32,000 nt of DNA from Candidatus Saccharimonadota bacterium (GTDB taxonomy: Archaea; Nanobdellota; Nanobdellia; Pacearchaeales; GW2011-AR1), in NCBI GenBank assembly GCA_041659445.1, contig JBAZYG010000002.1, positions 90,001-122,000 on the forward strand, in the 5' to 3' direction. Below, piece after piece: positions 9,262 through 32,000 of this stretch. Both the position numbers and the translations under genes were made by a program. Each line of letters begins with the position of its first letter. Position 1 is the first letter of the stretch. Below the pieces are notes generated by a model that was not told where the DNA came from, made no database searches, and saw only the letters and a list, made by a program, of their open reading frames with translations.

Positions 9262-9262
9262 T

Positions 9263-10186: not shown

Positions 10187-10206
10187 ATTAAGGAGCATGA
10201 ACTTTA

Positions 10207-10218
10207 TTTTTTAAGGTT
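10207..10218 (-). promoter_or_regulatory. putative BRE/TATA box for the 2-hydroxyacid-DH / SDR-HAD operon
   Basis: Minus strand aaCCTTAAAAAA, centred about 25 nt upstream of the ATG at 10186. Confidence 0.45.
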
Positions 10219-10318
10219 TTGTATGATTCATCTCATATTTTAATTCTACTTGATGGTATTTTTTATTGGGAAATTTTTTTACTTATATTGGTATTTTATT
10301 CATATTTTTCATTATAAT

Positions 10319-10330
10319 AATCTTTATAAA
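10319..10330 (+). promoter_or_regulatory. putative BRE/TATA box for the GT-B-like gene at 10354
   Basis: AATCTTTATAAA, centred about 27 nt upstream of the ATG. Confidence 0.5.
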
Positions 10331-10353
10331 GAAACATTTCTCCTGTTTTTTCA

Positions 10354-11538: not shown

Positions 11539-11562
11539 TTTTTAATAATCTTTTTTATCAAT

Positions 11563-12267: not shown

Positions 12268-12288
12268 ATAAATTTCTTTCTTTGTTAA

Positions 12289-12296
12289 TATATAAA
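12289..12296 (-). promoter_or_regulatory. putative TATA box for the cytidylyltransferase gene
   Basis: Minus strand TTTATATA, centred about 25-26 nt upstream of the ATG at 12267. Confidence 0.45.
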
Positions 12297-12314
12297 TTTA
12301 ATTGTTTTAAATAG

Positions 12315-13646: not shown

Positions 13647-13666
13647 ATCTTAATCAAAAGAAACAC

Positions 13667-13676
13667 TTTTTTAAAT
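13667..13676 (-). promoter_or_regulatory. putative TATA box for the 443-aa HP-motif gene
   Basis: Minus strand aTTTAAAAAA, centred about 25 nt upstream of the ATG at 13646. Confidence 0.45.
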
Positions 13677-13687
13677 ATTATTATAAT

Positions 13688-14623
13688 TTAAAATTTAGAA
13701 TAAAATTCAATACTTCTTCTCAAACCTTCTTCTAGGGAGACTTTTGGAATCCAACCAAGTTTTTGTAATTTTGTTGAATCTTGATATTGTTCTTGAATTT
13801 CCATAAGACTTACTGGTCGTCCGTGAACTTTTATATTTGTATCAGGATCTTTTTTCATTAAAATGCATATTTTTTCCATAAGGTCTTTGATTGTTAAATG
13901 TTCTGTTCCACCACAACAATATATTTCACCAGGTTTACCTTTTTTTGATACTAAATTAAATGCATCCAAAGCGTCGTCGATATATACAAACTCTCGAATA
14001 TGTTTTTCAGAATCTTCCCAAAGAAAAGCTGATTCTCCTTTTGAAAGACGAGTAATTGTTTTAGGAATAACACGAGACATATTAAAGTCTCCAGGACCAT
14101 AAAGATTTGAGCATGTAACAATTTTTATTGGGAGGCCATATTGTCGATGAAAATGCAATCCTGTAAGTTGTTGGCATGCTTTTGAAGTATCATAAGTAAA
14201 AAGAGGTTCAAGGTTACTTTCTTCATTATAAGGCACTTTTGCTTTTCCATACGCTTTATCACTAGTAGAAATAACTATACTTTCGATATTCCCTCCACCA
14301 TAATTTTTACAAGTTTCAAGCAATGAAACTGTTCCAAGAACATTTGTTTTAAAAGTTTTATATGGATCATTAGAGCATATTCCTACAATTGATTCTGCTG
14401 CAAAATGATACACCTCATTTATTTGATGCCTTACAATTATTTCTTTAATTAATTCTATATCATTTAAATCTCCTTGTGTATGGAAATCTGGATTGTATTC
14501 AATATTTTTGCTAAAAACATTTCCCCTATCTAATCCTATTACTCTGTTGTTTTTATCTTGTTTTAATTTTTTTACTAATGCTTTTCCAACAAATCCTTCA
14601 GAGCCAGTAATGAGTATATTCAT
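13688..14623 (-). CDS. NDP-sugar 4,6-dehydratase/epimerase (extended SDR)
   Basis: 'ILITGSEGFVGKAL', 'STSDKAYG' and 'YDTSKACQQL' (YxxxK), 311 aa. The STSDKxYG pattern resembles CDP-/NDP-hexose 4,6-dehydratases. It is divergent from an aminotransferase-acetyltransferase pair. Confidence 0.75.
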   Translation of the reverse strand: MNILITGSEGFVGKALVKKLKQDKNNRVIGLDRGNVFSKNIEYNPDFHTQGDLNDIELIKEIIVRHQINEVYHFAAESIVGICSNDPYKTFKTNVLGTVSLLETCKNYGGGNIESIVISTSDKAYGKAKVPYNEESNLEPLFTYDTSKACQQLTGLHFHRQYGLPIKIVTCSNLYGPGDFNMSRVIPKTITRLSKGESAFLWEDSEKHIREFVYIDDALDAFNLVSKKGKPGEIYCCGGTEHLTIKDLMEKICILMKKDPDTNIKVHGRPVSLMEIQEQYQDSTKLQKLGWIPKVSLEEGLRRSIEFYSKF

Positions 14624-14644
14624 AAATTTTATTTGTTTTATTCT

Positions 14645-14700
14645 TTTTTAAAGATTTATATGCTGATGTAGTTTATTAATTAGATATAAATCTTTATAAA
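14645..14700. promoter_or_regulatory. mirror-symmetric divergent promoter pair: a 17-nt inverted repeat (16/17 match) that contains both BRE/TATA boxes
   Basis: 14645-14661 tttttaaagatttatat matches the reverse complement of 14684-14700 (tttataaagatttatat). Each AATCTTTA(A/T)AAA box is centred about 26 nt from its ATG (14623 on the minus strand, 14723 on the plus strand). Confidence 0.55.
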
Positions 14701-14722
14701 CATCTATTATAATTTATTTTTC

Positions 14723-15829
14723 ATGGTCAAGCATATTCCTTTATCTTCACCAGATATAAATTTAAATGATAAAATGGAAGTCTTAAAAGTTTTATCTACT
14801 CGTCATTTGACGCAAGGTCCTAAAATAAATGAGTTTGAAAAAAAGTTTTCAGAATATTTAGAAGTTCCATATGCAATTGCAGTAAATAGTGGAACAAGTG
14901 CATTGCATCTTGCAGTTAGAAGTTTAGGTTTGCAGATGGGAGATGAAGTAATTGTTACACCTTTTAGTTTCATTGCTTCAAGTAATTGTTTGTTAATGGA
15001 AAAAATAAAACCTGTTTTTGTTGATATAAATGAAAAAGATTTTAATATCGATCCAGAATTAATAGAAGAAAAAATAACAAAAAAAACAAAAGCAATTCTT
15101 CCAGTAGATATTTTTGGAAATCCAATAAAAATTAAGGAAATTAAAATTTTATCAGAGAAATATAGTTTACCTATTTTAGAAGATTCTTGTGAAGCTCTTG
15201 GGGCAGAGTATAGTGGTGCAAAAGTCGGAACTTTATCTGACATTGCGACATTTGGATTTTATCCAAATAAACAAATAACAACTGGAGAAGGAGGAATGAT
15301 TGTTACCTTTAATAAAAATCTTGCAGAGCTTTGCATAAGTATGAGAAATCAAGGAAGAAATATAAATGGAGATTGGTTTTTTTATGAAAGATTAGGATAT
15401 AATTATCGAATGAATGAAATGAGTGCAGCATTAGGTTCTGCTCAAATGAATAGGATTGAAGAAATTTTATCTAAAAGAAAAAAAGTCGCAAATATTTATC
15501 TTAAAAAATTAAAAGATTTAGAAGGAATTATTTTACCTTATAATGACGAAAATAAAAGTTGGTTTAACTTTGTTATTAGAGTTGATGAAAAAATTAGAAA
15601 TAATCTTTTAAAATATCTTCAAACAGAAGGAATTGAATGTAAAAATTATTTTCCATCAATACATTTAGAACCTTTTTACATGAAAGAATTTGGATATAAA
15701 AAAGGAGATTTTCCAATTTCAGAAAAAATTTCAAGTCAGACAATTGCTCTGCCTTTTTATAATTTATTAAAAGAAGAAGACATATCTTATATTAAAGATA
15801 AATTAGAAAAAGGAATAAAAAATGCATAG
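14723..15829 (+). CDS. DegT/DnrJ/EryC1/StrS-family PLP-dependent sugar aminotransferase
   Basis: 'IPLSSPDIN...LTQGPKINEFEKKFSEYLEVPYAIAVNSGTSALHLA' and 'FYPNKQITTGEGGMIVT' (PLP-Lys context). Confidence 0.85.
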   Translation: MVKHIPLSSPDINLNDKMEVLKVLSTRHLTQGPKINEFEKKFSEYLEVPYAIAVNSGTSALHLAVRSLGLQMGDEVIVTPFSFIASSNCLLMEKIKPVFVDINEKDFNIDPELIEEKITKKTKAILPVDIFGNPIKIKEIKILSEKYSLPILEDSCEALGAEYSGAKVGTLSDIATFGFYPNKQITTGEGGMIVTFNKNLAELCISMRNQGRNINGDWFFYERLGYNYRMNEMSAALGSAQMNRIEEILSKRKKVANIYLKKLKDLEGIILPYNDENKSWFNFVIRVDEKIRNNLLKYLQTEGIECKNYFPSIHLEPFYMKEFGYKKGDFPISEKISSQTIALPFYNLLKEEDISYIKDKLEKGIKNA

Positions 15830-16223
15830 TCAAGAATGGAAAGATAAGTGGAAATTATCAAAGATAGAACATGGTAAATTAACAAAATACAATTTCTTAG
15901 TTCATTATCCTGAAGGACTTACTTTAGGGAAGTATATTGATATTTCTCAATTTGTTTATATTCAATCAAGAATGGGAGTAATAATTGAAGATGATGTTGA
16001 AATTGGACCATTTACAGCAATATTATCTGAAAGTACAATAGATAATAAATCTGGTTTAATTAAAATTTGTAAAGGGGCAAAAATAGGAACTCATTCAACA
16101 ATAATGCCGAATGTCACAATAGGTGAAAATTCAATTATTGGAGCATATAGTTTAGTAAAAAAAGACATACCACCGAATGTAATAGCTTACGGCGTGCCTT
16201 GCAAAATAATTAAAAAACTTTAA
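15822..16223 (+). CDS. left-handed beta-helix (hexapeptide-repeat) sugar N-acetyltransferase
   Basis: Hexapeptide repeats 'IGTHSTIMPNVTIGENSIIGAYSLV', ending '...PPNVIAYGVPCKIIKKL'. It has an 8-nt overlap with the upstream aminotransferase. Confidence 0.8.
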   Translation: MHSQEWKDKWKLSKIEHGKLTKYNFLVHYPEGLTLGKYIDISQFVYIQSRMGVIIEDDVEIGPFTAILSESTIDNKSGLIKICKGAKIGTHSTIMPNVTIGENSIIGAYSLVKKDIPPNVIAYGVPCKIIKKL

Positions 16224-20824: not shown

Positions 20825-21826
20825 ATGAATTTAAATTCTAAAAAAATTGGAATAAGTGGAGGAAGTGGTTTTTTAGGTAGAAGAATCGTCGATGAATTAC
20901 AAAAAAAAGGAGCAGAAGTTGTTGCTCCAAGAAGTTCAGAATATAATTTTACATTAGAAAAAGATACAGAAAGATTTTTTGTAAGTCATAATTTAGATAT
21001 GTTTGTTCATTCTGCAGCATTGTATGGTGGTTTAGGAATAAATGAAAAAATGCCTGCACATATTTTTAATTACAATATGCAAATGCTTTTGAATATTTTT
21101 AAACATTCAATAAATTATTCTTTAGGTTCAGAAGGAAAAGGAATTCCTCGAATAGAAAAGATGATTTCAATAAGTTCTGCTTGTGGATATCCGAGTAAAT
21201 GGGGAGATAATATGCGTGAAGAATTTCTCTGGGAAGGGGAATTAGATAAAAGTGTTTTGAATTATGGTATGGTAAAAAAATTAATGGAAACTCTTGGACA
21301 TGTTTATCGGAATCAACATGAATTACATTCAATAACCTTGCCTTTAGCAACACTTTATGGTGAGAATGATACTTTCAATCCATTTCGTTCTCATGTCCCT
21401 GCAGCATTAATTAGAAAATTTGTAGAAGCAGAACAAAAAAAAGAACCTTTTGTAAATTTGTGGGGAACTCCAGATAGTGTTCGAGAATTTATGTATGTTG
21501 GCGACGCTGCAAAAGGAATTGTTTTAGCTATAGAAAAATTTGATGGGATAGATAATGTTGGTTATTCTTCAAAATATACCTTAAATATCGGTTCTGGTGA
21601 AGGAATAACTATTGATTATCTTGCTACAACAATTAAAGATATTATCGGATATAAAGGGGATATAATTTATAATGGAAAAAGTCCAGGTCAAAAATCAAAA
21701 GCACTTGTTGTTGAAAGAATGGAAAAAGTTTTGAATTGGCATCCTCAAACTTCTTTAAGAGACGGTTTAGAAAAAACAATTAATTGGTATGTTAAGAATA
21801 AAGAAAAAGCAGATGAAAAATTTTAA
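20825..21826 (+). CDS. fcl: GDP-L-fucose synthase-like (GDP-4-keto-6-deoxymannose 3,5-epimerase/4-reductase)
   Basis: 'ISGGSGFLGRRI', 'FVHSAALYGGLGINEKMPAHIFNYNMQMLLNIF' (compare AAKVGGIxANxxxPAxFIxxNLxIQxNVI), 'SSACGYP' and 'YGMVKK' (YxxxK). A gmd gene is present in the same island. Confidence 0.75.
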   Translation: MNLNSKKIGISGGSGFLGRRIVDELQKKGAEVVAPRSSEYNFTLEKDTERFFVSHNLDMFVHSAALYGGLGINEKMPAHIFNYNMQMLLNIFKHSINYSLGSEGKGIPRIEKMISISSACGYPSKWGDNMREEFLWEGELDKSVLNYGMVKKLMETLGHVYRNQHELHSITLPLATLYGENDTFNPFRSHVPAALIRKFVEAEQKKEPFVNLWGTPDSVREFMYVGDAAKGIVLAIEKFDGIDNVGYSSKYTLNIGSGEGITIDYLATTIKDIIGYKGDIIYNGKSPGQKSKALVVERMEKVLNWHPQTSLRDGLEKTINWYVKNKEKADEKF

Positions 21827-22299: not shown

Positions 22300-23184
22300 T
22301 TAGATTTCTTCTTCAATTTTTATCCAATTCTTAGGTAATTCTGGATCTTCTTTTGAATCTTTAAACATTGAAAAACTTTTTGGAGCAATTACAATTTTTT
22401 TTGGATTTTTATTCAAATAACCTGCCCACCAACTTAATGCACTATTTGCTAAAATATTATGCTTACATGATTTCATTAATTCCAAATCTTCATAATCTTT
22501 GTTTCCCTCGACAAAATTTAATTTAATTCCAAGATTTGATAAATTTTCTTTGCACCAATCAATTTCATCAGAAAAAATATAAAAAATAGGATTTTTCACT
22601 TGTTTTTTTATGATTTCAATAGCTCTTTTGTAATAATCTGCACTCAATACTAAGCAATTTTTTAATTTTAAAACATCTCCACGTCTTACATGGATACTTA
22701 TAGAATTTTGTGAAGATATTTCTTTTAATCTTTCTTTTATTTGTTTTTTATATTCTTCTTTTAATTCAAATTCTTTTTTTATTATATTCTCTATTGGTTT
22801 AAAAAATTTTTCTCTTCCACAATAAATAATTAAATAACTGTTATTTGGTATTTTGAAAAAATCTTCTGCATCTCCATTACTTGGAAAACGATAAACGTTT
22901 CTTTCAAATAATTTTAATTTTCTTGTTAGTTTATCAATTGGTCTAAAATAGGTTCTAAAAATATATCTTTTAATTTCTTTTTTTGTTGCAATTTGAGAAG
23001 AAATATTAAATTTTTCTATAACTAAATCCCATGTTCCTCCAAACTTTTTTTCAAATCTTGGCCAAGATTGAAGATAAGTTTTATCTAGTTTAAGTTCTGT
23101 TTTGTGTTTTTCAGATAATGCTTTTGCAGCAGCATAAACATACATAGAATTTCCCAATCCACGTCCAATTTCAGCAATTATCAT
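22300..23184 (-). CDS. GT11-family alpha-1,2-fucosyltransferase
   Basis: N-terminal 'GRGLGNSMYVYAAAKAL', 'SIHVRRGDV' (the HVRRGDY motif) and 'ANSALSWWAGYLN' (compare SNSTFSWWAAYL). 4-nt overlap with the upstream GT4. Confidence 0.85.
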   Translation of the reverse strand: MIIAEIGRGLGNSMYVYAAAKALSEKHKTELKLDKTYLQSWPRFEKKFGGTWDLVIEKFNISSQIATKKEIKRYIFRTYFRPIDKLTRKLKLFERNVYRFPSNGDAEDFFKIPNNSYLIIYCGREKFFKPIENIIKKEFELKEEYKKQIKERLKEISSQNSISIHVRRGDVLKLKNCLVLSADYYKRAIEIIKKQVKNPIFYIFSDEIDWCKENLSNLGIKLNFVEGNKDYEDLELMKSCKHNILANSALSWWAGYLNKNPKKIVIAPKSFSMFKDSKEDPELPKNWIKIEEEI

Positions 23185-24275
23185 AATGCTTCCTTATAAA
23201 TTTTAATTAATTTTTTATCTCTTTCTTTAATTGAAAATTTTCCAAATTCAATTTCTTTTAAAGAGTTTTTTGACATTCTTTCTCTAAGTTTTTTGTTTTT
23301 TATTAATATTTCAACTTTTTTTTCAATTTCATCAATTGTTTTGTTCAATGTTTTTAAATTTTCTAATTCTTTTGTATTTTTCAAATTTGGATTTTGTATA
23401 ACAAAACCTGTTTTTCCGTCTTCAATTATTTCTTTTCTAGAATGCCCGTCTACAGAAACAACAGGAATTCCAAAAGACATAGCTTCTGTTATTGGAAAAC
23501 CAAAAGTATCAGTGTAAGATGGGTAAACAAAAATATCTGTTGTAGGGTATATTTCTTCAAATAATTTTTTTTGAGGCATTACATCATAAAATGTTATTTT
23601 TTTATTTTTTGAATATTTTTCTAAAATATCTCTTGGAATATCAGAAATAAATATTCCATTAACATCTTTATATTTTTTAGTTAACCTATCTATTACTTCT
23701 AAGGCATGCAATCCTCCTTTGAAATAAAATCTTCTTGAAACAAAAAGCAAGTTTATTTTTCCTGTTTTTATTTTTTTTAGTTTTTGTGTTGGAATTCCAG
23801 GATAAATAACTTCAATTTTATTTTTTATTTCTGGAAATTCTTTGACAATACCATCATAAGACCATTTTGTCCAAGCAAGAATTTTTTTGCAATTTTCATT
23901 TTTTAAAATTTTTTTAACTAAATATTTTTTAGGATGTTTGTCAAAGTTAGCAGCAACCCAGAATTGCCCAACCCATTCAGTGTCGCAAATCCAGGGTTTT
24001 TTATTTAAACTCAAACAATGTGCACAATGAATTAAATCATATTTTTCATTTGTTCTTGTTAAATGTGCATTTGGAATTGGAAGATTAAATATTCTGAAAA
24101 ATAATCTAATTAAATTTTTTGATTTATGAAGTATTTTGAATTTGCTTTTTTTAACTACAACACCAGATTTTGAATTTTGACCAATGTATTCAATTCCTTT
24201 TGGAGGAAAATTGAGTAAATATTGATAATAAGGGGAATCTGCAAATTTCCAAGGTCTTTGAATATAAACTTTCAT
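23181..24275 (-). CDS. GT4-family (GT-B) glycosyltransferase
   Basis: 'YPSYTDTFGFPITEAMSFGIPVVSVDGHSRKEIIEDGKTGFVI' is the typical Glycos_transf_1 C-terminal domain. Confidence 0.85.
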   Translation of the reverse strand: MKVYIQRPWKFADSPYYQYLLNFPPKGIEYIGQNSKSGVVVKKSKFKILHKSKNLIRLFFRIFNLPIPNAHLTRTNEKYDLIHCAHCLSLNKKPWICDTEWVGQFWVAANFDKHPKKYLVKKILKNENCKKILAWTKWSYDGIVKEFPEIKNKIEVIYPGIPTQKLKKIKTGKINLLFVSRRFYFKGGLHALEVIDRLTKKYKDVNGIFISDIPRDILEKYSKNKKITFYDVMPQKKLFEEIYPTTDIFVYPSYTDTFGFPITEAMSFGIPVVSVDGHSRKEIIEDGKTGFVIQNPNLKNTKELENLKTLNKTIDEIEKKVEILIKNKKLRERMSKNSLKEIEFGKFSIKERDKKLIKIYKEAL

Positions 24276-24334: not shown

Positions 24335-24712
24335 TTATAATTTGTTATAATCTTCAACAATTTTTCTCAATTTTGGATCTTTAACATCTGCTATTTTTTC
24401 AGAAGTAGTTACTCCCCATTCAGAAACAATAGAATCTTCTAACCCTACAAATGCATGTGCTATTTTTGGATTTATTGTTCCAGAATTTCCTTTATTAAGA
24501 ATTTTTTCTTCATATGGTCCATCAATTTGACCATAAATATATTTTATTTGACCTTTAATTACTACAAAATTTTCTGGAATAGTATGATAACATCCTCCTC
24601 TTGCTCTTCCTTTTTTTATTTCCATAAATGTGAATTCTTGCTGATTGTCAAGTAATCCTTCAACAGATTTTATATATCCTCTTTTATCTTCATGAATATC
24701 TATAATTTTCAT
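24335..24712 (-). CDS. small cupin, sugar-nucleotide keto-isomerase/epimerase-like (FdtA/WxcM/RmlC-type)
   Basis: 125 aa. 'DKRGYIKSVE' resembles the D.RG...E entry motif, and 'RARGGCYHTIPENFVVIKGQIKY' resembles the RGxHxH...G strand pattern. ATGA-coupled to the upstream aminotransferase. Confidence 0.5.
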   Translation of the reverse strand: MKIIDIHEDKRGYIKSVEGLLDNQQEFTFMEIKKGRARGGCYHTIPENFVVIKGQIKYIYGQIDGPYEEKILNKGNSGTINPKIAHAFVGLEDSIVSEWGVTTSEKIADVKDPKLRKIVEDYNKL

Positions 24713-25830
24713 TTTGTTTTGTAAAATTCTTTGATTTTATTTATTATTAAATTTATATCTTCTTCTTTAATTGCAGGTCCATTTGGCAACCATAAAAAAT
24801 TATTTGCAAAAAATGCAGAATTTGGAAATTTTTCATCATTGCCTTGATTTTGGTAAGGTGGATTTTGATGAAGTGCTGGCCAACAAATACGTGGGTAAAT
24901 TTCGTTTGAGTTTAAAAATTGAATTAAATTATTTCTACTTTCTGCAAAAACATCTATCCAAAGTGGAACTTCTCCTTTTTCTATTCTAACTTCTGGAAAT
25001 TTTATTTTTCCTTTTTTTATCAATGAATCTAATCCTTGAATATATTGAATAAGTTGTGAAGTCAACATTTCTTTTCTTTTTTCTAATTTATTTAATTGAC
25101 TTAATGTCAAGGCTGCTTGTAAATCATTGAATTTAAAATTATATCCTATTTCTGAATGTAAAAATTCTTTATTATTATTTCTTCCAAAATCCCTTAATCT
25201 TCTCATTATTCCATAGGATTCTTCATTTGATGTAACAATTATTCCTCCTTGGCCACAAGTGATTATTTTATTTGCTTGTAAAGAATAGCATCCAATGTCA
25301 CCAAATGTTCCTAAATCTTTTTTTAAATCATGTTTTGAACCAAGTGCATTAGCAGCGTCCTCCACAATAAATAAATTTTTTTCCTTGCAAAAATTCAAAA
25401 GTTCTTTACTAATTGCAGACCTTCCCAATGTATGAACTGGAACTATTCCAATAGTATATTTTGTAACTTTTTTTTCTAAATTTTCTAAATTCATAGTCAT
25501 TCTAAAATCATCAATTTCGACATCAGAAAGTATAGGTGTTCCTCCTGCAGCTTCAACAGCATTTGCTGTTGCAATCATAGTCATGTCTGGAACAATTACT
25601 TCAAAATATCCCTTTTTTCTTTTCATAGCTTCTGCTTTTATTCCGAGAAATAAAGCACTTGTTCCATTTGTAGTTAATAATACATAAGGTACATTGAGGA
25701 GTTCTTTTATTTTTTCTTCTAATTCTTTTGTTTTTGGCCCTTCATTAATATATCCTCTTCGTAAAACATCTATTATGGCTTTTTCATCATCTTTATCAAA
25801 ATTTGGTTCATACCAATTTATTCTTTTCAT
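24709..25830 (-). CDS. DegT-family sugar aminotransferase (GDP-perosamine synthase-like by context)
   Basis: 'YINEGPKTKELEEKIKELLNVPYVLLTTNGTSALFL' and 'SLQANKIITCGQGGIIVT' (PLP-Lys). ATGA overlap with gmd upstream. Confidence 0.8.
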   Translation of the reverse strand: MKRINWYEPNFDKDDEKAIIDVLRRGYINEGPKTKELEEKIKELLNVPYVLLTTNGTSALFLGIKAEAMKRKKGYFEVIVPDMTMIATANAVEAAGGTPILSDVEIDDFRMTMNLENLEKKVTKYTIGIVPVHTLGRSAISKELLNFCKEKNLFIVEDAANALGSKHDLKKDLGTFGDIGCYSLQANKIITCGQGGIIVTSNEESYGIMRRLRDFGRNNNKEFLHSEIGYNFKFNDLQAALTLSQLNKLEKRKEMLTSQLIQYIQGLDSLIKKGKIKFPEVRIEKGEVPLWIDVFAESRNNLIQFLNSNEIYPRICWPALHQNPPYQNQGNDEKFPNSAFFANNFLWLPNGPAIKEEDINLIINKIKEFYKTK

Positions 25831-26954
25831 ATTTTTCTTTCCAAGTTTTTTTTATAAACATTTTTCGCTTTCTCAATATAAAAATCATCTTCTTCATTTG
25901 TTTGCGTTAAAGAGAGGTATCCTTTTTCTTGCATTTTATCTTTTAATTCAGATGCAATCATCATTTTAACTAAATCCTTAAATTTAGTTTTTGCTTCCCA
26001 ACCTAAAGTTTCTTTAGCTTTCGATGGGTCTCCTAAAAGAGCAGGAACTTCAGCAGGTCTTTTATAATGGTCACTTGTTTTAACAAAATCTTTCCAATTT
26101 AAATCAAGCAAACTAAATGACTCATTTAAGAATTCTTTAATTGTATGTGTTTCTTGTGTTGCAATAACAATGTCTATAGGTTTATCTTGTTGCAAAATTT
26201 TCCATATTGCTTCGACATATTCTTTTGAAAAACCCCAATCTCTTTGTGCTTCAAGATTTCCCAAAGTAATAGATTTACTATCTCCAATTATAATATCTGC
26301 AACTCCCATTGCAATTTTTTTAGTAACAAAATTATATCCTCTTCGAGGAGATTCATGATTAAATAAAATTCCATTTGAAGCAAACATTCCATAAGAGTTT
26401 CTATACACTCTTGTAATATTGTATGCTGCTAATTTTGCAGTGCCATATGGGCTTTGAGGTAACATTGGTGTATCTTCATTTTGTGGAGGTGGAGAAATTC
26501 CAAACATTTCACTTGAACTTGCTTGATAATATTTGCAATTTAATTTCATATCTCTTAATGCTTCTAAAATTCTTAATGGTCCTAATGCATTAATATTAAA
26601 TGTTAATTCAGGATTTTGAAAACTTATACCTACGTGACTTTGTGCTCCAAGATTGTAAACTTCATCGGGTTTAACTTCTTCTATAATTCTTCTAATACTA
26701 GTAGCATCAGTTAAATCCCCATATTGCAAATAAAACGGAGATAAAGGTGTTTTTCCATAGATATCGTCATAGACATCCAAGTGTCTTATTCTTTGTGTAT
26801 TTGAAAAACTGGATCTTCTTATCATCCCACGAACTTTATATCCTTTTTCTAAAAGCAATTCAGCTAAATAACTTCCATCTTGACCAGTAATTCCAGTTAT
26901 TAATGCAGTTTTTCCATTCCAATTAAATTCCTCTTTAGAACTTTCATTAGTCAT
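25827..26954 (-). CDS. gmd: GDP-mannose 4,6-dehydratase
   Basis: 'KTALITGITGQDGSYLAELLLEKGYKVRGMIRRSS', 'ASSSEMFG' and 'YGTAKLAAYNITRVYRNSYGMFASNGILFNHESPRRG' are near-textbook Gmd signatures. Confidence 0.95.
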   Translation of the reverse strand: MTNESSKEEFNWNGKTALITGITGQDGSYLAELLLEKGYKVRGMIRRSSFSNTQRIRHLDVYDDIYGKTPLSPFYLQYGDLTDATSIRRIIEEVKPDEVYNLGAQSHVGISFQNPELTFNINALGPLRILEALRDMKLNCKYYQASSSEMFGISPPPQNEDTPMLPQSPYGTAKLAAYNITRVYRNSYGMFASNGILFNHESPRRGYNFVTKKIAMGVADIIIGDSKSITLGNLEAQRDWGFSKEYVEAIWKILQQDKPIDIVIATQETHTIKEFLNESFSLLDLNWKDFVKTSDHYKRPAEVPALLGDPSKAKETLGWEAKTKFKDLVKMMIASELKDKMQEKGYLSLTQTNEEDDFYIEKAKNVYKKNLERKI

Positions 26955-27002: not shown

Positions 27003-27530
27003 CTATTTCAATACTTCTAATTCAAACTCTATTTCAGAAGAGGGAAATATCCATGCAAGAAATCTGCAATAAAATTCATGATTCAAATTTATTAACGGGT
27101 TAAAAATTTTGTTCAAAATTTTTGCTCTTCCTATTGCAAAATTTATTTTCACTTTTTTTACATTAAACATGTCTTCTTTGCATCCAACTTCGTGAGAATA
27201 ATTATTTCTTTTAAAATAGTTAAAAGTAAATGGGCTAAAAAATCTTACATGTGTTGGGTCATTGTATTGACCCCATGCAGAATAAAATGGAGTTTTTATT
27301 TTAATTAATGTTCCTTTTTTTGAAATTCTTCTTAAATCGTGCATAAGGGGAATAAAATTTTGTATGTGTTCAAAAACATGTTCTGCAATTATTTCATCAA
27401 CAGAATTTTCTTTAAATGGAAGAGGGGTTTTTTCCAAATTCCATACTTTATCAGGATTTACATCTTTTGAAGAATCAATATTTAGATATCCTTTTTTCTT
27501 GTCAAGTCCACAACCAAGATTTAATTTCAT
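27003..27530 (-). CDS. class I SAM-dependent methyltransferase (Methyltransf_11-like)
   Basis: 'MKLNLGCG' (motif I at the N-terminus) and 'VDEIIAEHVFEHI'. The ATG at 27530 is preferred: it lies 1 nt after the aglB stop (27532-27534), whereas the track start 27560 would overlap aglB by 29 nt. Confidence 0.7.
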   Translation of the reverse strand: MKLNLGCGLDKKKGYLNIDSSKDVNPDKVWNLEKTPLPFKENSVDEIIAEHVFEHIQNFIPLMHDLRRISKKGTLIKIKTPFYSAWGQYNDPTHVRFFSPFTFNYFKRNNYSHEVGCKEDMFNVKKVKINFAIGRAKILNKIFNPLINLNHEFYCRFLAWIFPSSEIEFELEVLK

Positions 27531-27531
27531 T

Positions 27532-30258
27532 TTATTCGAATTTATAATCCATTCCTCCAAATGTAAAATTACTTTCTAAAAATTCAGAATATTCTGTCGT
27601 ATTTTCAGGATAATTTATTTTCCAAATTTTTAAAGGTCCTCTTAATCCTTGATAATACATAAATTCTTCATCTGTTTGATAAATTGATTTGATATAACTT
27701 ACAAATGTATCATCTTCTTTGTGAGTGAGAGTAATTCCAGAAAATTTATTCTTTGGGTCATTTAAAATATAAACTTGTCCAAGTAAACTTCTTGAAACTC
27801 TAGGAGATAAATACATTAATGCCCCTGTTGAATCATAAGAAAGTCCTTGATTTGATTCAGTTAATTGAGGAATTATATAAACTGTTGAATTTAATCCTTC
27901 ATTATAGATTATTAATTTGTTATTAAAATAAATATTTTTAATTGGAATGTAATACTGATTTCCTTTATAATAAAAGACACCTATTGGTTGATTAAAACTA
28001 ATCAAATCTTCTTCTTGAGAAATTTCGATCATTATTCCAATTAAATAAGATGAACAAGAAATTCTTTGTTGTTTTGAAACAGATAATCCTGGTAAAAATA
28101 CTTTTGTTTGATTTTTTTCGTAATATATATCTTCATCAACACAAGAATTCATATTATAAATTCTAACTATTCCTGTTGATGTTTCTTGAATATCTTTCTT
28201 TGAACTAATTCCGGCATCAACTCCTGTAGAAAGTCTATCCCAATTATTGTTACTTCCTATTTTTGAGAAAGCACCATATTTTGACATTTCTGTAGGGTCA
28301 ATTAATAAATATGAAACATTCCATGTTTTCATGAAGCTGTATGCTGTCTCAGGATTGTCTGTTGTTAGAATATATCTTCCAATATAATGATCTGTATTAT
28401 CTCCTCCAGAATGTCCACCGTCGGTAACAGTTGGTCTTTTTGCCATAGACTGTATGAAATAACCATAATCCCACCAATGAACAAAAATTGAATTTTCAGA
28501 AGTATTTTCTCTAACCCATTTCATTGCATTTTGCCACTGATAATTTGCAGAAGGACCCAGATATTTTCCTTGTTCTTTTGAAATTTGATAAATTCCTTGA
28601 TTATTATTTAATGGGTTCCAAAAAATAAATAAAATTAAAATTATTATTAATATGCAGGATAGAATTATAAAAAAATATTTCCAATTTTTATCTTTGCTGA
28701 TTTTCGAATTTTTAATTAATTCAGAGATAGAATATCCTGAGAAAAGTAACATAAATGGAATAACTAAAAAGAAACTTCTAGTTGCAGCTCTTGCGTTTAT
28801 CGCAACTGCTAATGCTAATGAAAACATAATTAAATATTCTGGTTTTATATTGAATTTTTCTTTAGAATAAACATAAAAAAACCCAATCAAAAATATAATA
28901 CATCCTATAAGATAGAATGCTTGACTAATGAAATTTTCTCCATTTAAAATTTTTGAATCAGACACTCTAGAGAATAATATCGCAACATAAATTAAAATTA
29001 AACTAGCTGAAAGAATTATTTTATTTTTTTTGTTTGTGATATCTTTTGAAAAATTAATTGCTAAAAATATTAAGCCTAATATAAACATCCAGAAAAGAGG
29101 TCTTCCAATGTTTGAAATCAAATCCTTTAAATATGGCTGAGAGTTCTCAGCAACAGTTGAGCTTAATCTTCCTGAAAAATCTTTAAAGAAAGGATATATT
29201 AATGTTGCCCAAGCTTTTTCTAGAAGATTTAATGGATTGATTTTTAAAATGGCTAAGAAAATTATTCCAATAATCATCGTAGATATAATGGAAATCAATA
29301 ATCTTTTTTTCTCATTTTCTTTTATTTTCTTTAAAACTTTTTTTGAAATAAAATCTAAAATTAGAAAAATTAAAACAAATGAAACTAAAATTCCTTGTGT
29401 TTCAGTAAATCTTGCCATTAATTGTTTGAGAGTATATTCTCCAATCAAAGAAATTATAGAAAAAATTACTATCCAAATTAAATAAAAAATGAAAAATTTA
29501 TCTTGATTTTTTGGGTTTAATAAATAATAGAAGAAACAAGTAATAGGGATTATAATAAACAAGAAAGTTATTCCTCCTGCCCAGCTGAATAAAACAAAAC
29601 TTAATAATGCTCCAGTAATAATTCCCCAGATGATTGTTTGTTTCCAATTTTTTTCATAATTTTTTAATGATAAAATAAAAACAATTAAAAATAAGATTAT
29701 TGCTAAAACTCCTAAATGGTCATGGTCATAAAATCCTCTAGAGCTTCTAAATAAAAAAGAAGGAGTAATTGCCAAAGCTGTAGAAGCAATTAAACCTGCT
29801 AATTTAGATTTAGTTAATATAAAGCATAAAATAAAAAAAGCAATTATAATTAATGCAAAAATAAAAACTGCAGAAATTGTAGCAACATAATTAAATGTGA
29901 TATCTGGAGAAAATATTTTCATAATTTTATATTGTCCAATTAAGATATTTGGAAGAATTTCGTTTAACCAAGTTATGTTGTAACTCGGAGACCTAAGTTC
30001 ATCTATTTGAGGTAATGTTCCTTCGTTTAATTTGGTTTCTGCAATTCTGTAAAAATACATTGAATCAAGGTCTGTTGATAAATATTCCCCTGTAGTTTGG
30101 TCTTTAAGGATAGGTAAGTTTTGCAATCTTAAAAAACATCCCAGGAATAAAATTAACAATAAAAAGATTACTGTAATTATTATTTGAACTTTTTTTTGTG
30201 AGAAAAAATTTATAACTTTTTCTGAATTTTCTTTCACTCTCTTCCAATTTTCACTCAT
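27532..30258 (-). CDS. aglB: archaeal oligosaccharyltransferase AglB (STT3 family)
   Basis: 908 aa with an N-terminal region of about 13 TM helices and a C-terminal soluble domain. It has the catalytic 'WWDYGY' motif ('VHWWDYGYFIQ') and acidic loop motifs such as 'GFYDHDH'. Confidence 0.9.
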   Translation of the reverse strand: MSENWKRVKENSEKVINFFSQKKVQIIITVIFLLLILFLGCFLRLQNLPILKDQTTGEYLSTDLDSMYFYRIAETKLNEGTLPQIDELRSPSYNITWLNEILPNILIGQYKIMKIFSPDITFNYVATISAVFIFALIIIAFFILCFILTKSKLAGLIASTALAITPSFLFRSSRGFYDHDHLGVLAIILFLIVFILSLKNYEKNWKQTIIWGIITGALLSFVLFSWAGGITFLFIIIPITCFFYYLLNPKNQDKFFIFYLIWIVIFSIISLIGEYTLKQLMARFTETQGILVSFVLIFLILDFISKKVLKKIKENEKKRLLISIISTMIIGIIFLAILKINPLNLLEKAWATLIYPFFKDFSGRLSSTVAENSQPYLKDLISNIGRPLFWMFILGLIFLAINFSKDITNKKNKIILSASLILIYVAILFSRVSDSKILNGENFISQAFYLIGCIIFLIGFFYVYSKEKFNIKPEYLIMFSLALAVAINARAATRSFFLVIPFMLLFSGYSISELIKNSKISKDKNWKYFFIILSCILIIILILFIFWNPLNNNQGIYQISKEQGKYLGPSANYQWQNAMKWVRENTSENSIFVHWWDYGYFIQSMAKRPTVTDGGHSGGDNTDHYIGRYILTTDNPETAYSFMKTWNVSYLLIDPTEMSKYGAFSKIGSNNNWDRLSTGVDAGISSKKDIQETSTGIVRIYNMNSCVDEDIYYEKNQTKVFLPGLSVSKQQRISCSSYLIGIMIEISQEEDLISFNQPIGVFYYKGNQYYIPIKNIYFNNKLIIYNEGLNSTVYIIPQLTESNQGLSYDSTGALMYLSPRVSRSLLGQVYILNDPKNKFSGITLTHKEDDTFVSYIKSIYQTDEEFMYYQGLRGPLKIWKINYPENTTEYSEFLESNFTFGGMDYKFE

Positions 30259-30295: not shown

Positions 30296-31297
30296 TTAGA
30301 AGAAAATTATAAATCCGATGCCAATGACAATTATTTGGAAGGCGTTTATTAATAGAGGGACTTCCCATTCATATGCTTTTTTGCTTGGTTTTATTTTCTT
30401 TAAAATTCTTATTGCAATGTGTTCTAATCCATAATTTTTTTCATAAGGGGGGTTTAAACTTCCGTCGGGATTCAATTTACCAAAAGATTCTTTTTTAAGT
30501 CTTCCTCTAATTTTTAAAATTGTTTCTAAAATATAGGGTATAAAAAAGAATATTGCAATTAATTCAACTTTTCCTAAAATTGCAATACAGGCAATCATAG
30601 CTCCAACAGAATATGTCAAAATATCTCCTGGAAAAACTTTTGCAGGATATTTATTAAATAAATAAAATGCGATTAATGAAACAACCATACACATTGAAAT
30701 AACACTTAGCCAAGGATTTCCTGTTAAAAATGTGACAATTGCGAGTGAGCCTAAGATTAAAATTCCTTGACTTGCTTCTAAGCCATTATACCCTGCTAAA
30801 AAATTAAAAGTTGATGTTGCTCCGACGATTCCGATTGGAACAATTAAAAGTGGAAATAATATTCCAAGGTTAATTCCAAAAATATGCGTGTCTCCTGCAT
30901 TAAGAACCATTAATGGAATTGCAGAAAAAATTAAAAGAATAATTCTTGTTCTATTACTTAATCCTCTTTTCCAACCAAGTAAATCATCAACAATACCGAC
31001 GATTGATGCAAAAAATAAAACTCCCAGTAAAGCAAAAATTTCAGAAGTGTGTGTATTTTCTTTAAATAAAAATGTTTTCAGTGCAATATATAATAAAGCA
31101 CCGAGAGTAACACCCACAAGAACAGCCATTCCACCGCCTTCTGCAACTTTTTTATTTCCTATTTTGTGAATATCTTTTCCTGTTAATCCTTCGGCATGCG
31201 CTCTTTTAATCCAAACAGGCAATGCTATGAATGTTATTAAAAAAGAAATCATTAATATAGGAAAAAATAAAACTCCCAAAAAAAATAAATTATCCAT
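30296..31297 (-). CDS. polyprenyl-phosphate HexNAc-1-phosphate transferase (MraY/WecA/ALG7 family; AglH-like)
   Basis: 10-11 TM helices. 'IVDDLLGW' is the Mg-binding DD. 'FNFLAGYNGLEASQG' resembles NxxNxxDGxDGL. 'VFPGDILTYSVGAMIA' is also present. Confidence 0.85.
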   Translation of the reverse strand: MDNLFFLGVLFFPILMISFLITFIALPVWIKRAHAEGLTGKDIHKIGNKKVAEGGGMAVLVGVTLGALLYIALKTFLFKENTHTSEIFALLGVLFFASIVGIVDDLLGWKRGLSNRTRIILLIFSAIPLMVLNAGDTHIFGINLGILFPLLIVPIGIVGATSTFNFLAGYNGLEASQGILILGSLAIVTFLTGNPWLSVISMCMVVSLIAFYLFNKYPAKVFPGDILTYSVGAMIACIAILGKVELIAIFFFIPYILETILKIRGRLKKESFGKLNPDGSLNPPYEKNYGLEHIAIRILKKIKPSKKAYEWEVPLLINAFQIIVIGIGFIIFF

Positions 31298-31337: not shown

Positions 31338-32000
31338 TTAAGTGAATAGTAAAGGGGTAATATAAACTTCAATAAGTCCTGCAATAACTAAAATTATTAA
31401 TGAAATAAATATCAAGATTATAACATTTTCGAAGACCATTAAAAATCTTCTGCTTTTTAATCCATTTCTAGCTAATCCAACTCCGAGAATTCCTCCTGCT
31501 AAAGCAGTTATAAAGTATGCTGCTATTTCTGGAAGGCCATGGATCATATATCTTGAAATTCCTAATGGAATGGCAGATAATTTGTATTGTGTAAAAATTC
31601 CAATTGCTCCAGAAATTACTGTTGCATTCCATGCTAAAATAAAAATTGCACCTGCTCCAAAAATCAGCGAGAATAAAAGCGTGAATATCATTACATAAAC
31701 ATTATTTTCTAAAATAGATAAAAATCTATTTCCATTTGTAGCTGCACCAGTTACTCCTGAATTGGAAGAATTTGAAATAGAATATTGTTGTACACATTGT
31801 TCAACATTTCCAGGACTATTAATCATACAATAAGTTTCAATTTGAGCATTTAATATATTTGAATTTTGTAAAACAATTACCCAAAATGAAAATGCGACGA
31901 TAAATCCTAAAAATAACCAAATCAATGCAAAAATAGCATCTTTATGAACTTTCCAAACATGAAGCAATCCTTCAATTTCTTCGTCTTGTTTTTCTTCTTT
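31338..32000 (-). CDS. SpoIIM-like/DUF95 integral membrane protein; probably 5'-truncated by the window end
   Basis: 'SRYMIHGLPEIAAYFITALAGGILG' is typical of DUF95. The track's 'M' at 31967 is a TTG, and the frame stays open upstream to position 32000 (KEEKQDEEIEG-L...). Confidence 0.55.
   Translation of the reverse strand, partial: KEEKQDEEIEGLLHVWKVHKDAIFALIWLFLGFIVAFSFWVIVLQNSNILNAQIETYCMINSPGNVEQCVQQYSISNSSNSGVTGAATNGNRFLSILENNVYVMIFTLLFSLIFGAGAIFILAWNATVISGAIGIFTQYKLSAIPLGISRYMIHGLPEIAAYFITALAGGILGVGLARNGLKSRRFLMVFENVIILIFISLIILVIAGLIEVYITPLLFT

What the first reader, a model, noticed from the sequence alone, without database searches (positions are those of the whole stretch)
24335..26954. 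gmd - DegT aminotransferase - small cupin, all ATGA-coupled: possible GDP-linked amino-deoxyhexose branch with a candidate GDP-4-keto-6-deoxymannose keto-isomerase
Gmd makes GDP-4-keto-6-deoxy-D-mannose. The next gene overlaps it by 4 nt and is a DegT aminotransferase. The gene after that also overlaps by 4 nt and is a 125-aa cupin with the D-x-R-G entry motif of FdtA/QdtA/RmlC-type enzymes that act on 4-keto-6-deoxy sugars. Gmd plus aminotransferase alone would give GDP-perosamine. Adding a cupin suggests 3,4-keto isomerisation or epimerisation on a GDP-sugar. Characterised 3,4-ketoisomerases act on dTDP-sugars, and for the GDP-mycosamine route (GDP-3-amino-3,6-dideoxymannose) the isomerase step has no assigned enzyme as far as I know. 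This tight three-gene unit is a natural candidate for that missing activity.
Basis: partly seen in the sequence, partly recalled or inferred. Interest (0 to 1): 0.6.

Follow-up and report, generated by a model that had tools for sequence, protein, structure and literature searches.

The report
Conserved GDP-sugar aminotransferase–cupin module in archaea
A tiny uncultured archaeon carries a tightly linked, widely conserved gene trio (a sugar dehydratase, an aminotransferase and a small uncharacterised barrel enzyme, the last two often fused into one protein) that most likely makes an unusual GDP-linked amino sugar for its surface glycan, and the small enzyme is a credible but unproven candidate for a sugar-rearranging activity that has never been assigned to any protein.

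Summary
On the minus strand, gmd (25827-26954), a DegT aminotransferase (24709-25830) and a 125-aa cupin (24335-24712) overlap by ATGA, inside an N-glycosylation locus of a Pacearchaeota (DPANN) genome.

The trio is not a chance neighbourhood. Every close cupin relative with enough context lies within 3 kb of a true Gmd and the orthologous aminotransferase. In 29 of the 120 best aminotransferase clusters the cupin is fused to the aminotransferase C-terminus.

The cupin belongs to no curated family. Its nearest relatives are nucleotide-sugar cupins: the Zn-dependent epimerase domain of S. aureus CapF (best fold match) and FdtA/QdtA-type 3,4-ketoisomerases. It keeps their D-x-R-G motif and a complete cupin metal motif in which Cys41 replaces the first His.

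So a GDP-linked branch with a cupin acting on GDP-4-keto-6-deoxymannose before transamination is well supported. Whether the cupin is a 3,4-ketoisomerase (about 0.4) or a C3/C3,5-epimerase (about 0.35) cannot be decided by sequence. Published work says perosamine and mycosamine synthases are inseparable by sequence, and that no GDP-specific ketoisomerase is known.

The parts
25827..26954 (-). gmd, GDP-mannose 4,6-dehydratase (375 aa). It makes GDP-4-keto-6-deoxy-D-mannose.
   Evidence: TIGR01472 433.1 bits against a 415 cut-off. PF16363 401.6 bits. Orthologues lie next to the cupin in all related loci.
24709..25830 (-). DegT-family PLP aminotransferase (373 aa), Per-like. Its start overlaps the gmd stop (ATGA at 25827-25830).
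   Evidence: PF01041 264 bits. The best functionally defined PDB match is Caulobacter perosamine synthase 3bn1, 136 bits over the full length, with the catalytic Lys conserved. JGI names orthologues perosamine synthetase. 29 of the 120 best clusters carry a C-terminal cupin.
24335..24712 (-). Stand-alone 125-aa cupin of an uncharacterised family. Motifs: D9-x-R11-G12; G35-x5-C41-x-H43-x3-E47-x6-G54; G75-x10-H86. Its start overlaps the aminotransferase stop (ATGA at 24709-24712).
   Evidence: Only sub-threshold curated hits: Cupin_2 17.6 bits, PF14667 18.2 bits, and the WbcJ/CapF-type reductase C-terminal region at E 3.2e-5. AF2 pLDDT 94.2. Top Foldseek hit is the CapF cupin domain, E 6.6e-7, TM 0.68. 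Family invariants are listed.
27003..27560 (-). Small class I SAM methyltransferase (185 aa) immediately upstream of gmd. It is a conserved fourth member of the block.
   Evidence: Methyltransf_11/23, weak. Orthologues sit directly upstream of gmd in L001/L017 (315 bits) and L007 (263 bits). A 179-aa methyltransferase occupies the same place in the ERZ1426829 locus.
23181..24275 (-). GT4-family glycosyltransferase directly downstream of the cupin. It is the candidate transferase for the amino sugar.
   Evidence: PF00534 82.6 bits. Orthologues (456-558 bits) follow the cupin in L001, L002, L003-5 and L007.
22300..23184 (-). GT11 (alpha-1,2-fucosyltransferase family) glycosyltransferase.
   Evidence: PF01531 107.2 bits. 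Conserved in L001, L003-5 and L007.
20825..21826 (+). Fcl-like SDR (GDP-L-fucose synthase-like). It is the second consumer of the Gmd product.
   Evidence: NF047922 192.5 bits over the full length, below the 500 cut-off.
27532..30258 (-). AglB/STT3 oligosaccharyltransferase (908 aa). It marks the locus as an archaeal N-glycosylation cluster.
   Evidence: PF02516, PF21436 and PF22627. The same order SpoIIM - GT4-family phosphotransferase - STT3 - methyltransferase - gmd - aminotransferase - cupin is seen.
30296..31297 (-). Glycos_transf_4 (AglH/GPT-type) initiating phosphosugar transferase.
   Evidence: PF00953 103.5 bits.

Best explanation
The genes methyltransferase-gmd-aminotransferase-cupin-GT4 form a conserved module in the N-glycosylation locus of a DPANN archaeon.

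Proposed steps:
1. [quoted passage not shown]
2. The small cupin binds this GDP-ketosugar and removes the C3 proton next to the 4-keto group. It does this through a CapF/FdtA-type active site built from Cys41, His43, Glu47 and His86, which probably holds a divalent metal that chelates O3/O4 of the enediolate (inferred).
3. My preferred outcome is reprotonation at C4, that is 3,4-ketoisomerisation to the labile GDP-3-keto-6-deoxyhexose.
4. The translationally coupled, and in many relatives covalently fused, Per-like aminotransferase traps this at once as a GDP-3-amino-3,6-dideoxyhexose (mycosamine-type sugar). The adjacent GT4 then transfers it to the lipid-linked glycan.

The general scheme (cupin acts on the Gmd product before the aminotransferase, so the product is not plain perosamine) has confidence of about 0.75. 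The specific ketoisomerase outcome has about 0.4.
For: Coupling:
- ATGA overlaps at both junctions.
- gmd, aminotransferase and cupin lie within 3 kb in the window, L001/L017, L003-5, L006, L007, L012, L015 and the ERZ1426829 locus.
- 29 of the 120 best aminotransferase clusters are aminotransferase-cupin fusions, all with R-G-G-C-x-H. One fusion was seen in context after gmd (L007).

GDP specificity:
- All adjacent dehydratases are Gmd-type.
- Gmm-like NUDIX genes neighbour the cupin.

Sugar-cupin identity:
- The only NCBIfam hit is the C-terminal cupin region of WbcJ/CapF-type reductases.
- Foldseek's top hits are CapF, with RmlC, FdtA-like, QdtA and DdahB all in the top 50.
- A profile of the N-terminal half hits, among cupins, only FdtA-like ketoisomerases (7n67, 5tpu) and Cap5F. 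D-x-R-G and R-G-G-C-x-H align to their D-x-R-G and R/K-G-x-H-x-H.

For isomerase specifically:
- From established knowledge, every characterised cupin that feeds a DegT aminotransferase directly after a 4,6-dehydratase is a 3,4-ketoisomerase (FdtA/FdtB, QdtA/QdtB, Tyl1a/TylB, WlaRA/RB with WlaRG).
- The size of about 125 aa matches FdtA/QdtA.
- By sequence profile, FdtA-like and QdtA rank above CapF.
- Fusion fits channelling of an unstable 3-keto intermediate.
- Per-like scaffolds are known to give C3 amination in mycosamine synthases.
Against: - The closest structure and the closest curated model are CapF's cupin, which is an epimerase, not an isomerase.
- The position that aligns with the first His of the FdtA-type H-x-H motif (the catalytic base in FdtA, from memory of the FdtA literature) is Cys here. 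PF05523 does not hit the window protein.
- His-type relatives sit with a dehydratase plus RmlD/Fcl-like reductases, a layout typical of epimerases.
- The aminotransferase's best characterised relatives are C4 aminotransferases: Per in the PDB, and LegC and PseC in NCBIfam.
- No activity, metal content or product has been measured.
- All E-values linking the cupin to characterised sugar cupins are weak (3e-5 to 0.6).
Confidence: 0.4

Rival explanations
1. The cupin is a C3- (or C3,5- or C5-) epimerase of GDP-4-keto-6-deoxy-D-mannose that works like the Zn-dependent cupin domain of CapF. The aminotransferase then aminates C4 of the epimerised ketosugar. The product is a GDP-4-amino-4,6-dideoxyhexose of non-manno configuration, for example altro, or L-galacto after 3,5-epimerisation. 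In effect this is Fcl chemistry with transamination in place of reduction.
For: - CapF's cupin domain is the best Foldseek match (E 6.6e-7, TM 0.68).
- The WbcJ/CapF-type reductase model is the only NCBIfam hit.
- Motif 1 maps C41/H43/E47 onto CapF H288/H290/E295. His290 is a Zn ligand, and Zn is essential for the epimerisation (PMC5393024).
- Position 41 varies only among C, H, D and E across relatives, as a metal ligand would.
- His-type relatives co-occur with a 4,6-dehydratase plus RmlD/Fcl-like reductases.
- A GDP-linked cupin epimerase already exists (DdahB, 7ani).
- The aminotransferase's nearest characterised relatives are C4-specific.
- Fucosyltransferase-family GTs (GT11, and GT10 in L015) accompany the module.
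Against: - To my knowledge no epimerase paired with, or fused to, a C4 aminotransferase on a 4-keto-6-deoxyhexose has been characterised.
- The window's Fcl-like SDR already accounts for a fucose branch feeding GT11.
- Sequence profiles rank ketoisomerases slightly above CapF.
Confidence: 0.35
2. The pathway makes ordinary GDP-perosamine (Gmd plus a Per-type C4 aminotransferase). The cupin has an accessory or unrelated role, for example a GDP-sugar-binding or regulatory subunit, or an enzyme acting later on the glycan.
For: - Gmd plus Per suffices for GDP-perosamine in vitro (PMC8944477).
- JGI names orthologues of the aminotransferase perosamine synthetase, and the protein aligns over its full length with Per.
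- Two loci place a GNAT acetyltransferase directly after the aminotransferase, as expected for N-acetyl-perosamine, with the cupin on the other strand.
Against: - An accessory role does not explain strict co-occurrence and 29 independent fusion clusters.
- It does not explain the invariant catalytic-type residues C41, H43, H86 and E98.
- It does not explain homology to enzymes that act on 4-keto-6-deoxy sugars.
- Once the keto group is aminated there is no obvious chemistry left for such a cupin.
Confidence: 0.1
3. Gmd serves only the fucose branch (Fcl-like SDR plus GT11). The aminotransferase-cupin pair acts on a different nucleotide sugar, or the cupin is a small metal-dependent phosphosugar isomerase (PMI/PGI-like) that supplies mannose-6-phosphate.
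For: - The window has an Fcl-like gene and a GT11.
- JGI labels some homologues mannose-6-phosphate isomerase-like.
- Cupin-type PGIs are among the Foldseek hits at about 5e-6.
- The cupin has a full metal motif.
Against: - Gmd-aminotransferase adjacency holds in loci where no Fcl-like gene is seen in the 14-15 kb examined (L007 and ERZ1426829) and in L012.
- The D-x-R-G region aligns only with nucleotide-sugar cupins.
- Fusion to a nucleotide-sugar aminotransferase is not expected for a PMI.
- No other 4,6-dehydratase lies next to the pair.
Confidence: 0.1

Closest known systems
[quoted passage not shown]
   Same: - Best fold match and the only NCBIfam hit.
- Shared D-x-R-G.
- The CapF motif K285-G-N-H288-W-H290...E295 aligns with R38-G-G-C41-Y-H43...E47.
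- It acts on the product of a 4,6-dehydratase and is physically joined to the enzyme that traps its product.
   Different: - CapF's cupin is fused to an SDR reductase. This cupin is free-standing or fused to an aminotransferase.
- Cys replaces His288.
- The partner dehydratase is Gmd (GDP-D-manno), not CapE (UDP-L-sugar).
- PF14667 scores 18.2 bits against a 28.7 cut-off.
FdtA / QdtA / HCAN_0198 / WlaRB 3,4-ketoisomerases (PF05523)
   Same: - A small single-domain cupin of about 125-140 aa with D-x-R-G.
- R-G-x-H-x-H is in register with R-G-G-C-x-H.
- The same gene logic: 4,6-dehydratase, then cupin, then DegT aminotransferase.
   Different: - These enzymes use dTDP-glucose-derived substrates.
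- The first His of the motif (the catalytic base in FdtA, from memory) is Cys here.
- There is no PF05523 hit for the window protein.
- The known enzymes are metal-independent (from memory), whereas this family keeps a complete metal motif.
RmlC-type epimerases, including the GDP-specific DdahB/MlghB of Campylobacter jejuni
   Same: They are cupins that enolise nucleotide-4-keto-6-deoxy sugars. DdahB shows that GDP-manno-configured ketosugars are cupin substrates (7ani).
   Different: They are about 180 aa with a different active-site arrangement. They appear only as weak fold and profile matches. They are followed by reductases, not aminotransferases.
Two-enzyme GDP-perosamine pathway (Gmd + Per/RfbE) and the GDP-mycosamine pathway of polyene producers (AmphDIII/DII, NysDIII/DII)
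   Same: A Gmd followed by a Per-like PLP aminotransferase. The aminotransferase aligns over its full length with Caulobacter Per.
   Different: Neither known pathway has a cupin. In mycosamine biosynthesis the isomerisation is thought to be spontaneous and no enzyme is known. Here an extra conserved, often fused, cupin is present.

Membership tests
GDP-mannose 4,6-dehydratase (NCBIfam TIGR01472) | Score above the curated equivalog cut-off, over the full length | tested here: met
   433.1 bits against 415, residues 15-338 on profile positions 1-340 of 342.
DegT/DnrJ/EryC1/StrS sugar aminotransferases (PF01041) | Full-length HMM match and the PLP Schiff-base lysine (not the His of the ColD dehydratases) | tested here: met
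   264 bits, profile positions 4-359 of 360. The Lys in A-N-K-I-I-T aligns with the Per lysine in G-N-K-I-I-T.
GDP-perosamine synthase (Per/RfbE) | C4 regiospecificity on GDP-4-keto-6-deoxymannose | not testable with these tools
   Per is the best functionally defined PDB match (136 bits). However, verified perosamine and mycosamine synthases cannot be told apart by sequence (PMC8944477).
Cupin superfamily | Double-stranded beta-helix fold with motif 1 G-x5-H-x-H-x3,4-E-x6-G and motif 2 G-x5-P-x-G-x2-H-x3-N | tested here: met
   The AF2 model (pLDDT 94.2) matches 531 PDB cupin chains at E <= 0.001. Motif 1 fits exactly with Cys41 in place of the first His. The motif 2 spacing G75...H86 fits (sequence).
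FdtA/QdtA 3,4-ketoisomerases (PF05523) | HMM membership | tested here: not met
   No PF05523 hit at E <= 0.01 for the window protein. One fusion relative, P0057, reaches only E 0.008.
FdtA/QdtA 3,4-ketoisomerases (PF05523) | Conserved His-x-His pair, with the first His as catalytic base | tested here: not met
   The first His is Cys41 and the second is kept as His43 (alignment to 7n67 and 5tpu). Cys is present in all 29 fusions and all close homologues.
FdtA/QdtA 3,4-ketoisomerases (PF05523) | 3,4-ketoisomerase activity feeding a C3 aminotransferase | not testable with these tools
   Only the gene logic (dehydratase, cupin, DegT) is shared.
CapF C-terminal cupin domain (PF14667; WbcJ/CapF equivalog NF047837) | HMM membership above the cut-off | tested here: not met
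   PF14667 scores 18.2 bits against 28.7. NF047837 scores 23 bits against 500, covering only the cupin part 252-327.
CapF C-terminal cupin domain (PF14667; WbcJ/CapF equivalog NF047837) | Metal-site residues (H288, H290, E295) and metal dependence | tested here: inconclusive
   The positions align as C41, H43 and E47. Position 41 is C, H, D or E across relatives. Metal binding itself was not measured.
CapF C-terminal cupin domain (PF14667; WbcJ/CapF equivalog NF047837) | Fusion to an N-terminal SDR 4-reductase | tested here: not met
   The protein is stand-alone (125 aa) or fused to a DegT aminotransferase.
RmlC 3,5-epimerases | HMM membership and a size of about 180 aa | tested here: not met
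   No Pfam or NCBIfam RmlC hit. There are only weak PDB profile hits (E 0.1) and fold hits.

The most novel reading that the evidence does not exclude
The cupin family is the first enzyme that catalyses 3,4-ketoisomerisation of GDP-4-keto-6-deoxy-D-mannose. It would use a Cys/His/Glu/His (probably metal) site and be physically coupled or fused to a Per-derived C3 aminotransferase. DPANN archaea would then decorate their N-glycans with a GDP-derived 3-amino-3,6-dideoxyhexose (mycosamine-type sugar). The pair would also give an enzymatic route to GDP-mycosamine, which has so far failed in vitro.
Probability: 0.38. Interest if true: 0.75.

Novelty: new variant of a known kind. Interest (0 to 1): 0.6.

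Why it matters
No enzyme is known for the 3,4-ketoisomerisation of GDP-4-keto-6-deoxymannose. GDP-mycosamine has not been made in vitro from GDP-mannose with the known dehydratase and aminotransferase (PMC8944477). This limits glyco-engineering of amphotericin-type antifungals.

This family gives a concrete, clonable candidate: a 125-aa protein, or a natural aminotransferase-cupin fusion of about 490 aa, with a clear assay.

If it proves to be an epimerase instead, it still defines a new route to GDP-4-amino-4,6-dideoxyhexoses and a new subfamily of CapF-like metallo-cupins. Either way it shows what sugar chemistry sits at the core of a conserved DPANN archaeal N-glycosylation locus, for which no glycan structures are known (to my knowledge).

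Tried and rejected
- A single-sequence PDB search with the cupin gave only noise (E >= 0.34). A search with P0088 gave nothing.
- Full-length family profiles are dominated by generic metal cupins such as oxalate decarboxylase and quercetinase. I therefore searched with the N-terminal half alone. This isolates the sugar-nucleotide cupins, but only at weak E-values (0.14-0.6).
- I did not build an aminotransferase phylogeny. Reference sequences were not retrievable here, and the literature states that C3 (mycosamine) and C4 (perosamine) GDP-sugar aminotransferases are not separable by sequence.
- Literature searches found nothing for perosamine + cupin, GDP-perosamine + cupin + aminotransferase, ketoisomerase + bifunctional + aminotransferase + cupin, or PDB codes 7B0D/7B0M.
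- I considered and rejected a PMI/PGI-type role (JGI label) because of the D-x-R-G alignment and the fusion to a nucleotide-sugar aminotransferase.
- I considered that the cupin supplies the epimerase step for fucose. This is unlikely in the window because the Fcl-like SDR appears to keep both epimerase residues. That was read by eye against my memory of E. coli GMER Cys109/His179 and was not tested with a tool.
- I could not inspect the geometry of the putative metal site because model coordinates are not exposed.
- The methyltransferase upstream of gmd has no informative PDB relative, so N- versus O-methylation is open.
Full report
**Source and setting**

The window has about 26% G+C. The cupin and the aminotransferase are 100% identical to proteins of a Candidatus Pacearchaeota (DPANN archaeon) MAG.

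The finding lies in an archaeal N-glycosylation locus. On the minus strand the order is:
- SpoIIM-like protein (31338-31967)
- Glycos_transf_4 phosphosugar transferase (30296-31297)
- AglB/STT3 (27532-30258)
- a small methyltransferase (27003-27560)
- gmd, aminotransferase and cupin
- GT4 (23181-24275)
- GT11 (22300-23184)

On the plus strand nearby are an Fcl-like SDR (20825-21826) and another SDR.

**Observation**

The three ORFs are exactly as described and both junctions are ATGA overlaps.
- Gmd passes the NCBIfam equivalog threshold (433 against 415 bits).
- The aminotransferase is a full-length DegT protein (264 bits) with the Schiff-base lysine, so it is not a ColD-like dehydratase.
- The 125-aa protein has only sub-threshold curated hits: Cupin_2 at E 0.0032, PF14667 at E 0.0028, and the C-terminal cupin part of the WbcJ/CapF-type reductase model at E 3.2e-5.
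- It nonetheless folds confidently as a cupin barrel (pLDDT 94.2).
- D9-K-R11-G12 is present and conserved.

**Is the trio a unit?**

Yes. Close cupin homologues (49-67% identity, about 121-127 aa) are found in DPANN contigs. I examined every one that had enough flanking DNA.
- The window, L001/L017, L003-5 and the ERZ1426829 locus have methyltransferase-gmd-aminotransferase-cupin-GT4-(methyltransferase)-GT11.
- L006 and L015 (a Woesearchaeota MAG) have gmd-aminotransferase-GNAT convergent with the cupin.
- L012, which is more divergent, has gmd-unknown-cupin-aminotransferase.
- L007 has a single 494-aa aminotransferase-cupin protein after gmd.

Only L016, cut 0.9 kb after the cupin, shows no aminotransferase.

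All neighbouring dehydratases are Gmd-type: 378-466 bits on TIGR01472, against at most 116 bits on dTDP- or CDP-glucose dehydratase models.

Searching with the aminotransferase shows how frequent the fusion is. Of the 120 best 90%-identity clusters, 29 are proteins of 436-504 aa with the cupin at the C-terminus. All 29 carry R-G-G-C-x-H, and their linkers differ. This Rosetta-stone pattern, together with translational coupling, argues that the cupin and the aminotransferase catalyse linked steps on a GDP-sugar.

**What is the cupin?**

Family conservation gives these invariant residues: R38, H43, G54, H86, S94 and E98. D9, R11 and G12 are nearly invariant.

The sequence fits both canonical cupin motifs. 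Motif 1 is G35-x5-C41-x-H43-x3-E47-x6-G54 and motif 2 is G75-x10-H86. So the four classical metal-ligand positions are Cys, His, Glu and His.

Among the 161 relatives (of 198 examined) in which the motif could be located, position 41 is Cys in 103, His in 39, Asp in 12 and Glu in 4.

[quoted passage not shown] An RmlC homologue, the FdtA-like ketoisomerase HCAN_0198, QdtA, RmlC and the GDP-specific DdahB all appear in the top 50, among many generic metal cupins.

Family profiles against PDB sequences give:
- FdtA-like 7n67 at E 0.013, and Cap5F and RmlC-like at 0.1-0.2, for the Cys-type family
- QdtA at 4.4e-7, Cap5F at 3e-6, an RmlC-like protein at 1.5e-5 and FdtA at 3e-5 for the His-type relatives

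A profile of only the N-terminal 60 residues hits, among cupins, only FdtA-like proteins and Cap5F. It puts D-x-R-G and R-G-G-C-x-H in register with D-N-R-G...R-G-A-H-A-H (7n67) and D-D-R-G...K-G-N-H-W-H-H-T-K-N-E (Cap5F). This maps C41, H43 and E47 onto CapF H288, H290 and E295.

In CapF the cupin domain epimerises the ketosugar made by CapE. It needs a Zn ion to which His290 is bound, and a tropolone inhibitor chelates that Zn through its carbonyl and hydroxyl oxygens (PMC5393024).

**Sub-structure of the family**

- Type I, the window type: D-x-R-G and A-R-G-G-C-x-H. It always occurs with Gmd and the Per-like aminotransferase.
- Type II, for example P0054: D-x-R-R and A-I-G-G-C-x-H. It sits as gmd-cupin-methyltransferase with no aminotransferase in 10 kb.
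- Type III, the His type: R-G-G-H-x-H, including Thaumarchaeota. It has no Gmd or aminotransferase link. In L008 it sits with a LegB/RmlB-like dehydratase, an Fcl-like SDR and an RmlD-like reductase, the layout of an epimerase.

The Cys and His types are clearly homologous (hhalign probability 100%). That figure is inflated because A1 contains five His-type sequences.

An outgroup aminotransferase (41% identity) in L030 also sits beside a true Gmd. It has a His-type 135-aa cupin and a TylC3-like C-methyltransferase nearby.

**Mechanism**

Both 3,4-ketoisomerisation and C3-epimerisation begin with removal of the C3 proton next to the 4-keto group, giving an enediolate. The two differ only in where the proton returns. 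The data support that shared first step on GDP-4-keto-6-deoxymannose, with the aminotransferase trapping the product (confidence about 0.75).

For the outcome I lean slightly to ketoisomerisation (about 0.4). My reasons are:
- Every characterised dehydratase-cupin-DegT arrangement is an isomerase plus a C3 aminotransferase (established knowledge).
- Size and sequence-profile ranking resemble FdtA/QdtA.
- Fusion makes sense for a labile 3-keto intermediate.
- Per-like scaffolds are known to give C3 amination in mycosamine synthases.

Epimerisation (about 0.35) is supported by:
- CapF being the closest structure and the closest curated model
- the complete metal motif
- the epimerase-like contexts of the His-type relatives
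- the C4 specificity of the aminotransferase's nearest characterised relatives

Plain perosamine with an accessory cupin (about 0.1), and a different substrate or a PMI-like role (about 0.1), fit the fusion data poorly.

**Comparison with what is known, and novelty**

The family is not captured by any Pfam or NCBIfam model above threshold. Public names are 'hypothetical protein', 'cupin domain-containing protein' or 'perosamine synthetase'. I found no paper linking a cupin to perosamine or GDP-sugar aminotransferases.

A 2022 review states that no 3,4-ketoisomerase acting on GDP-4-keto-6-deoxymannose has been identified. It also states that GDP-mycosamine could not be made in vitro with Gmd and mycosamine synthase alone. 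A 2015 review calls the step 'presumably spontaneous'.

The module is therefore a new variant of a known kind: a nucleotide-sugar cupin plus a DegT aminotransferase, on a GDP-mannose-derived substrate, with a Cys-containing CapF-like site and frequent fusion.

It would not by itself explain mycosamine synthesis in Streptomyces, whose clusters are reported to lack a candidate ketoisomerase gene. It would, however, make the enzymatic step testable and potentially usable.

Noticed in passing
L003 3520-5877 (also L004, L005): The Gmd orthologue is 785 aa. It has a 382-aa insertion inside the conserved F-N-H-E|S-P-R-R-G motif. The insertion begins C-I-S-E-N, ends V-I-A-N followed by Ser, and contains a LAGLIDADG-like L-F-L-G-M-M-I-G-D-G-Y-V. 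It is very probably an intein with a homing endonuclease in the Gmd active-site region. No Pfam intein model hit at E <= 0.001.
   Followed up: partly
Proteins P0095, P0115, P0129: HNH endonuclease domains are fused N-terminally to Cys-type cupins of this family. This may be a homing endonuclease inserted upstream of the cupin, or a viral context.
   Followed up: no
window 7966-16223: A second sugar-modification set. It comprises an SDR with an extra C-terminal region (7966-9261), a 2-hydroxyacid dehydrogenase (9263-10198), a weak UDP-GlcNAc 2-epimerase-like protein (10354-11538), a CMP-sugar-type cytidylyltransferase (11563-12267), a 4,6-dehydratase-like SDR (13688-14623), a second canonical DegT (14723-15829, 397 bits) and an overlapping hexapeptide acetyltransferase (15822-16223). 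It resembles a diacetamido-sugar or nonulosonic-acid pathway, but no NeuB-like synthase was seen.
   Followed up: partly
L015 10638-12933 and 6515-7522: In a Woesearchaeota MAG, gmd-aminotransferase-GNAT is preceded by NTP-transferase, GHMP kinase and SIS isomerase genes, a set like that for GDP-heptose synthesis. The cupin follows a GT10 fucosyltransferase-family gene. The 'Gmd' there might act on a GDP-heptose.
   Followed up: partly
L030 4893-9380: An outgroup aminotransferase (41% identity) lies next to a true Gmd (431 bits against the window Gmd). Nearby are a 135-aa His-type cupin (PF14667) and a TylC3-like sugar C-methyltransferase (Methyltransf_13/14). This suggests a GDP-linked branched-chain amino sugar pathway.
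   Followed up: partly
L013 3454-5321; proteins P0054-P0077: A sister subfamily of the cupin has D-x-R-R instead of D-x-R-G and A-I-G-G-C-x-H instead of A-R-G-G-C-x-H. It overlaps gmd directly and is followed by a methyltransferase, with no aminotransferase or reductase within 10 kb.
   Followed up: partly
L001 / L017 (BPGA01000001.1): The same contig is titled Candidatus Pacearchaeota in the genome collection, but its proteins are labelled Candidatus Parcubacteria bacterium in the protein source names. The locus carries STT3/AglB, so the archaeal label fits better.
   Followed up: no
L006 6471-6968; L016 6573-7112; ERZ1426829 locus: A NUDIX hydrolase lies beside the cupin in three loci. Its best NCBIfam hit in L016 is GDP-mannose mannosyl hydrolase. 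This echoes the gmd-fcl-gmm arrangement of colanic acid clusters (the latter from memory).
   Followed up: partly
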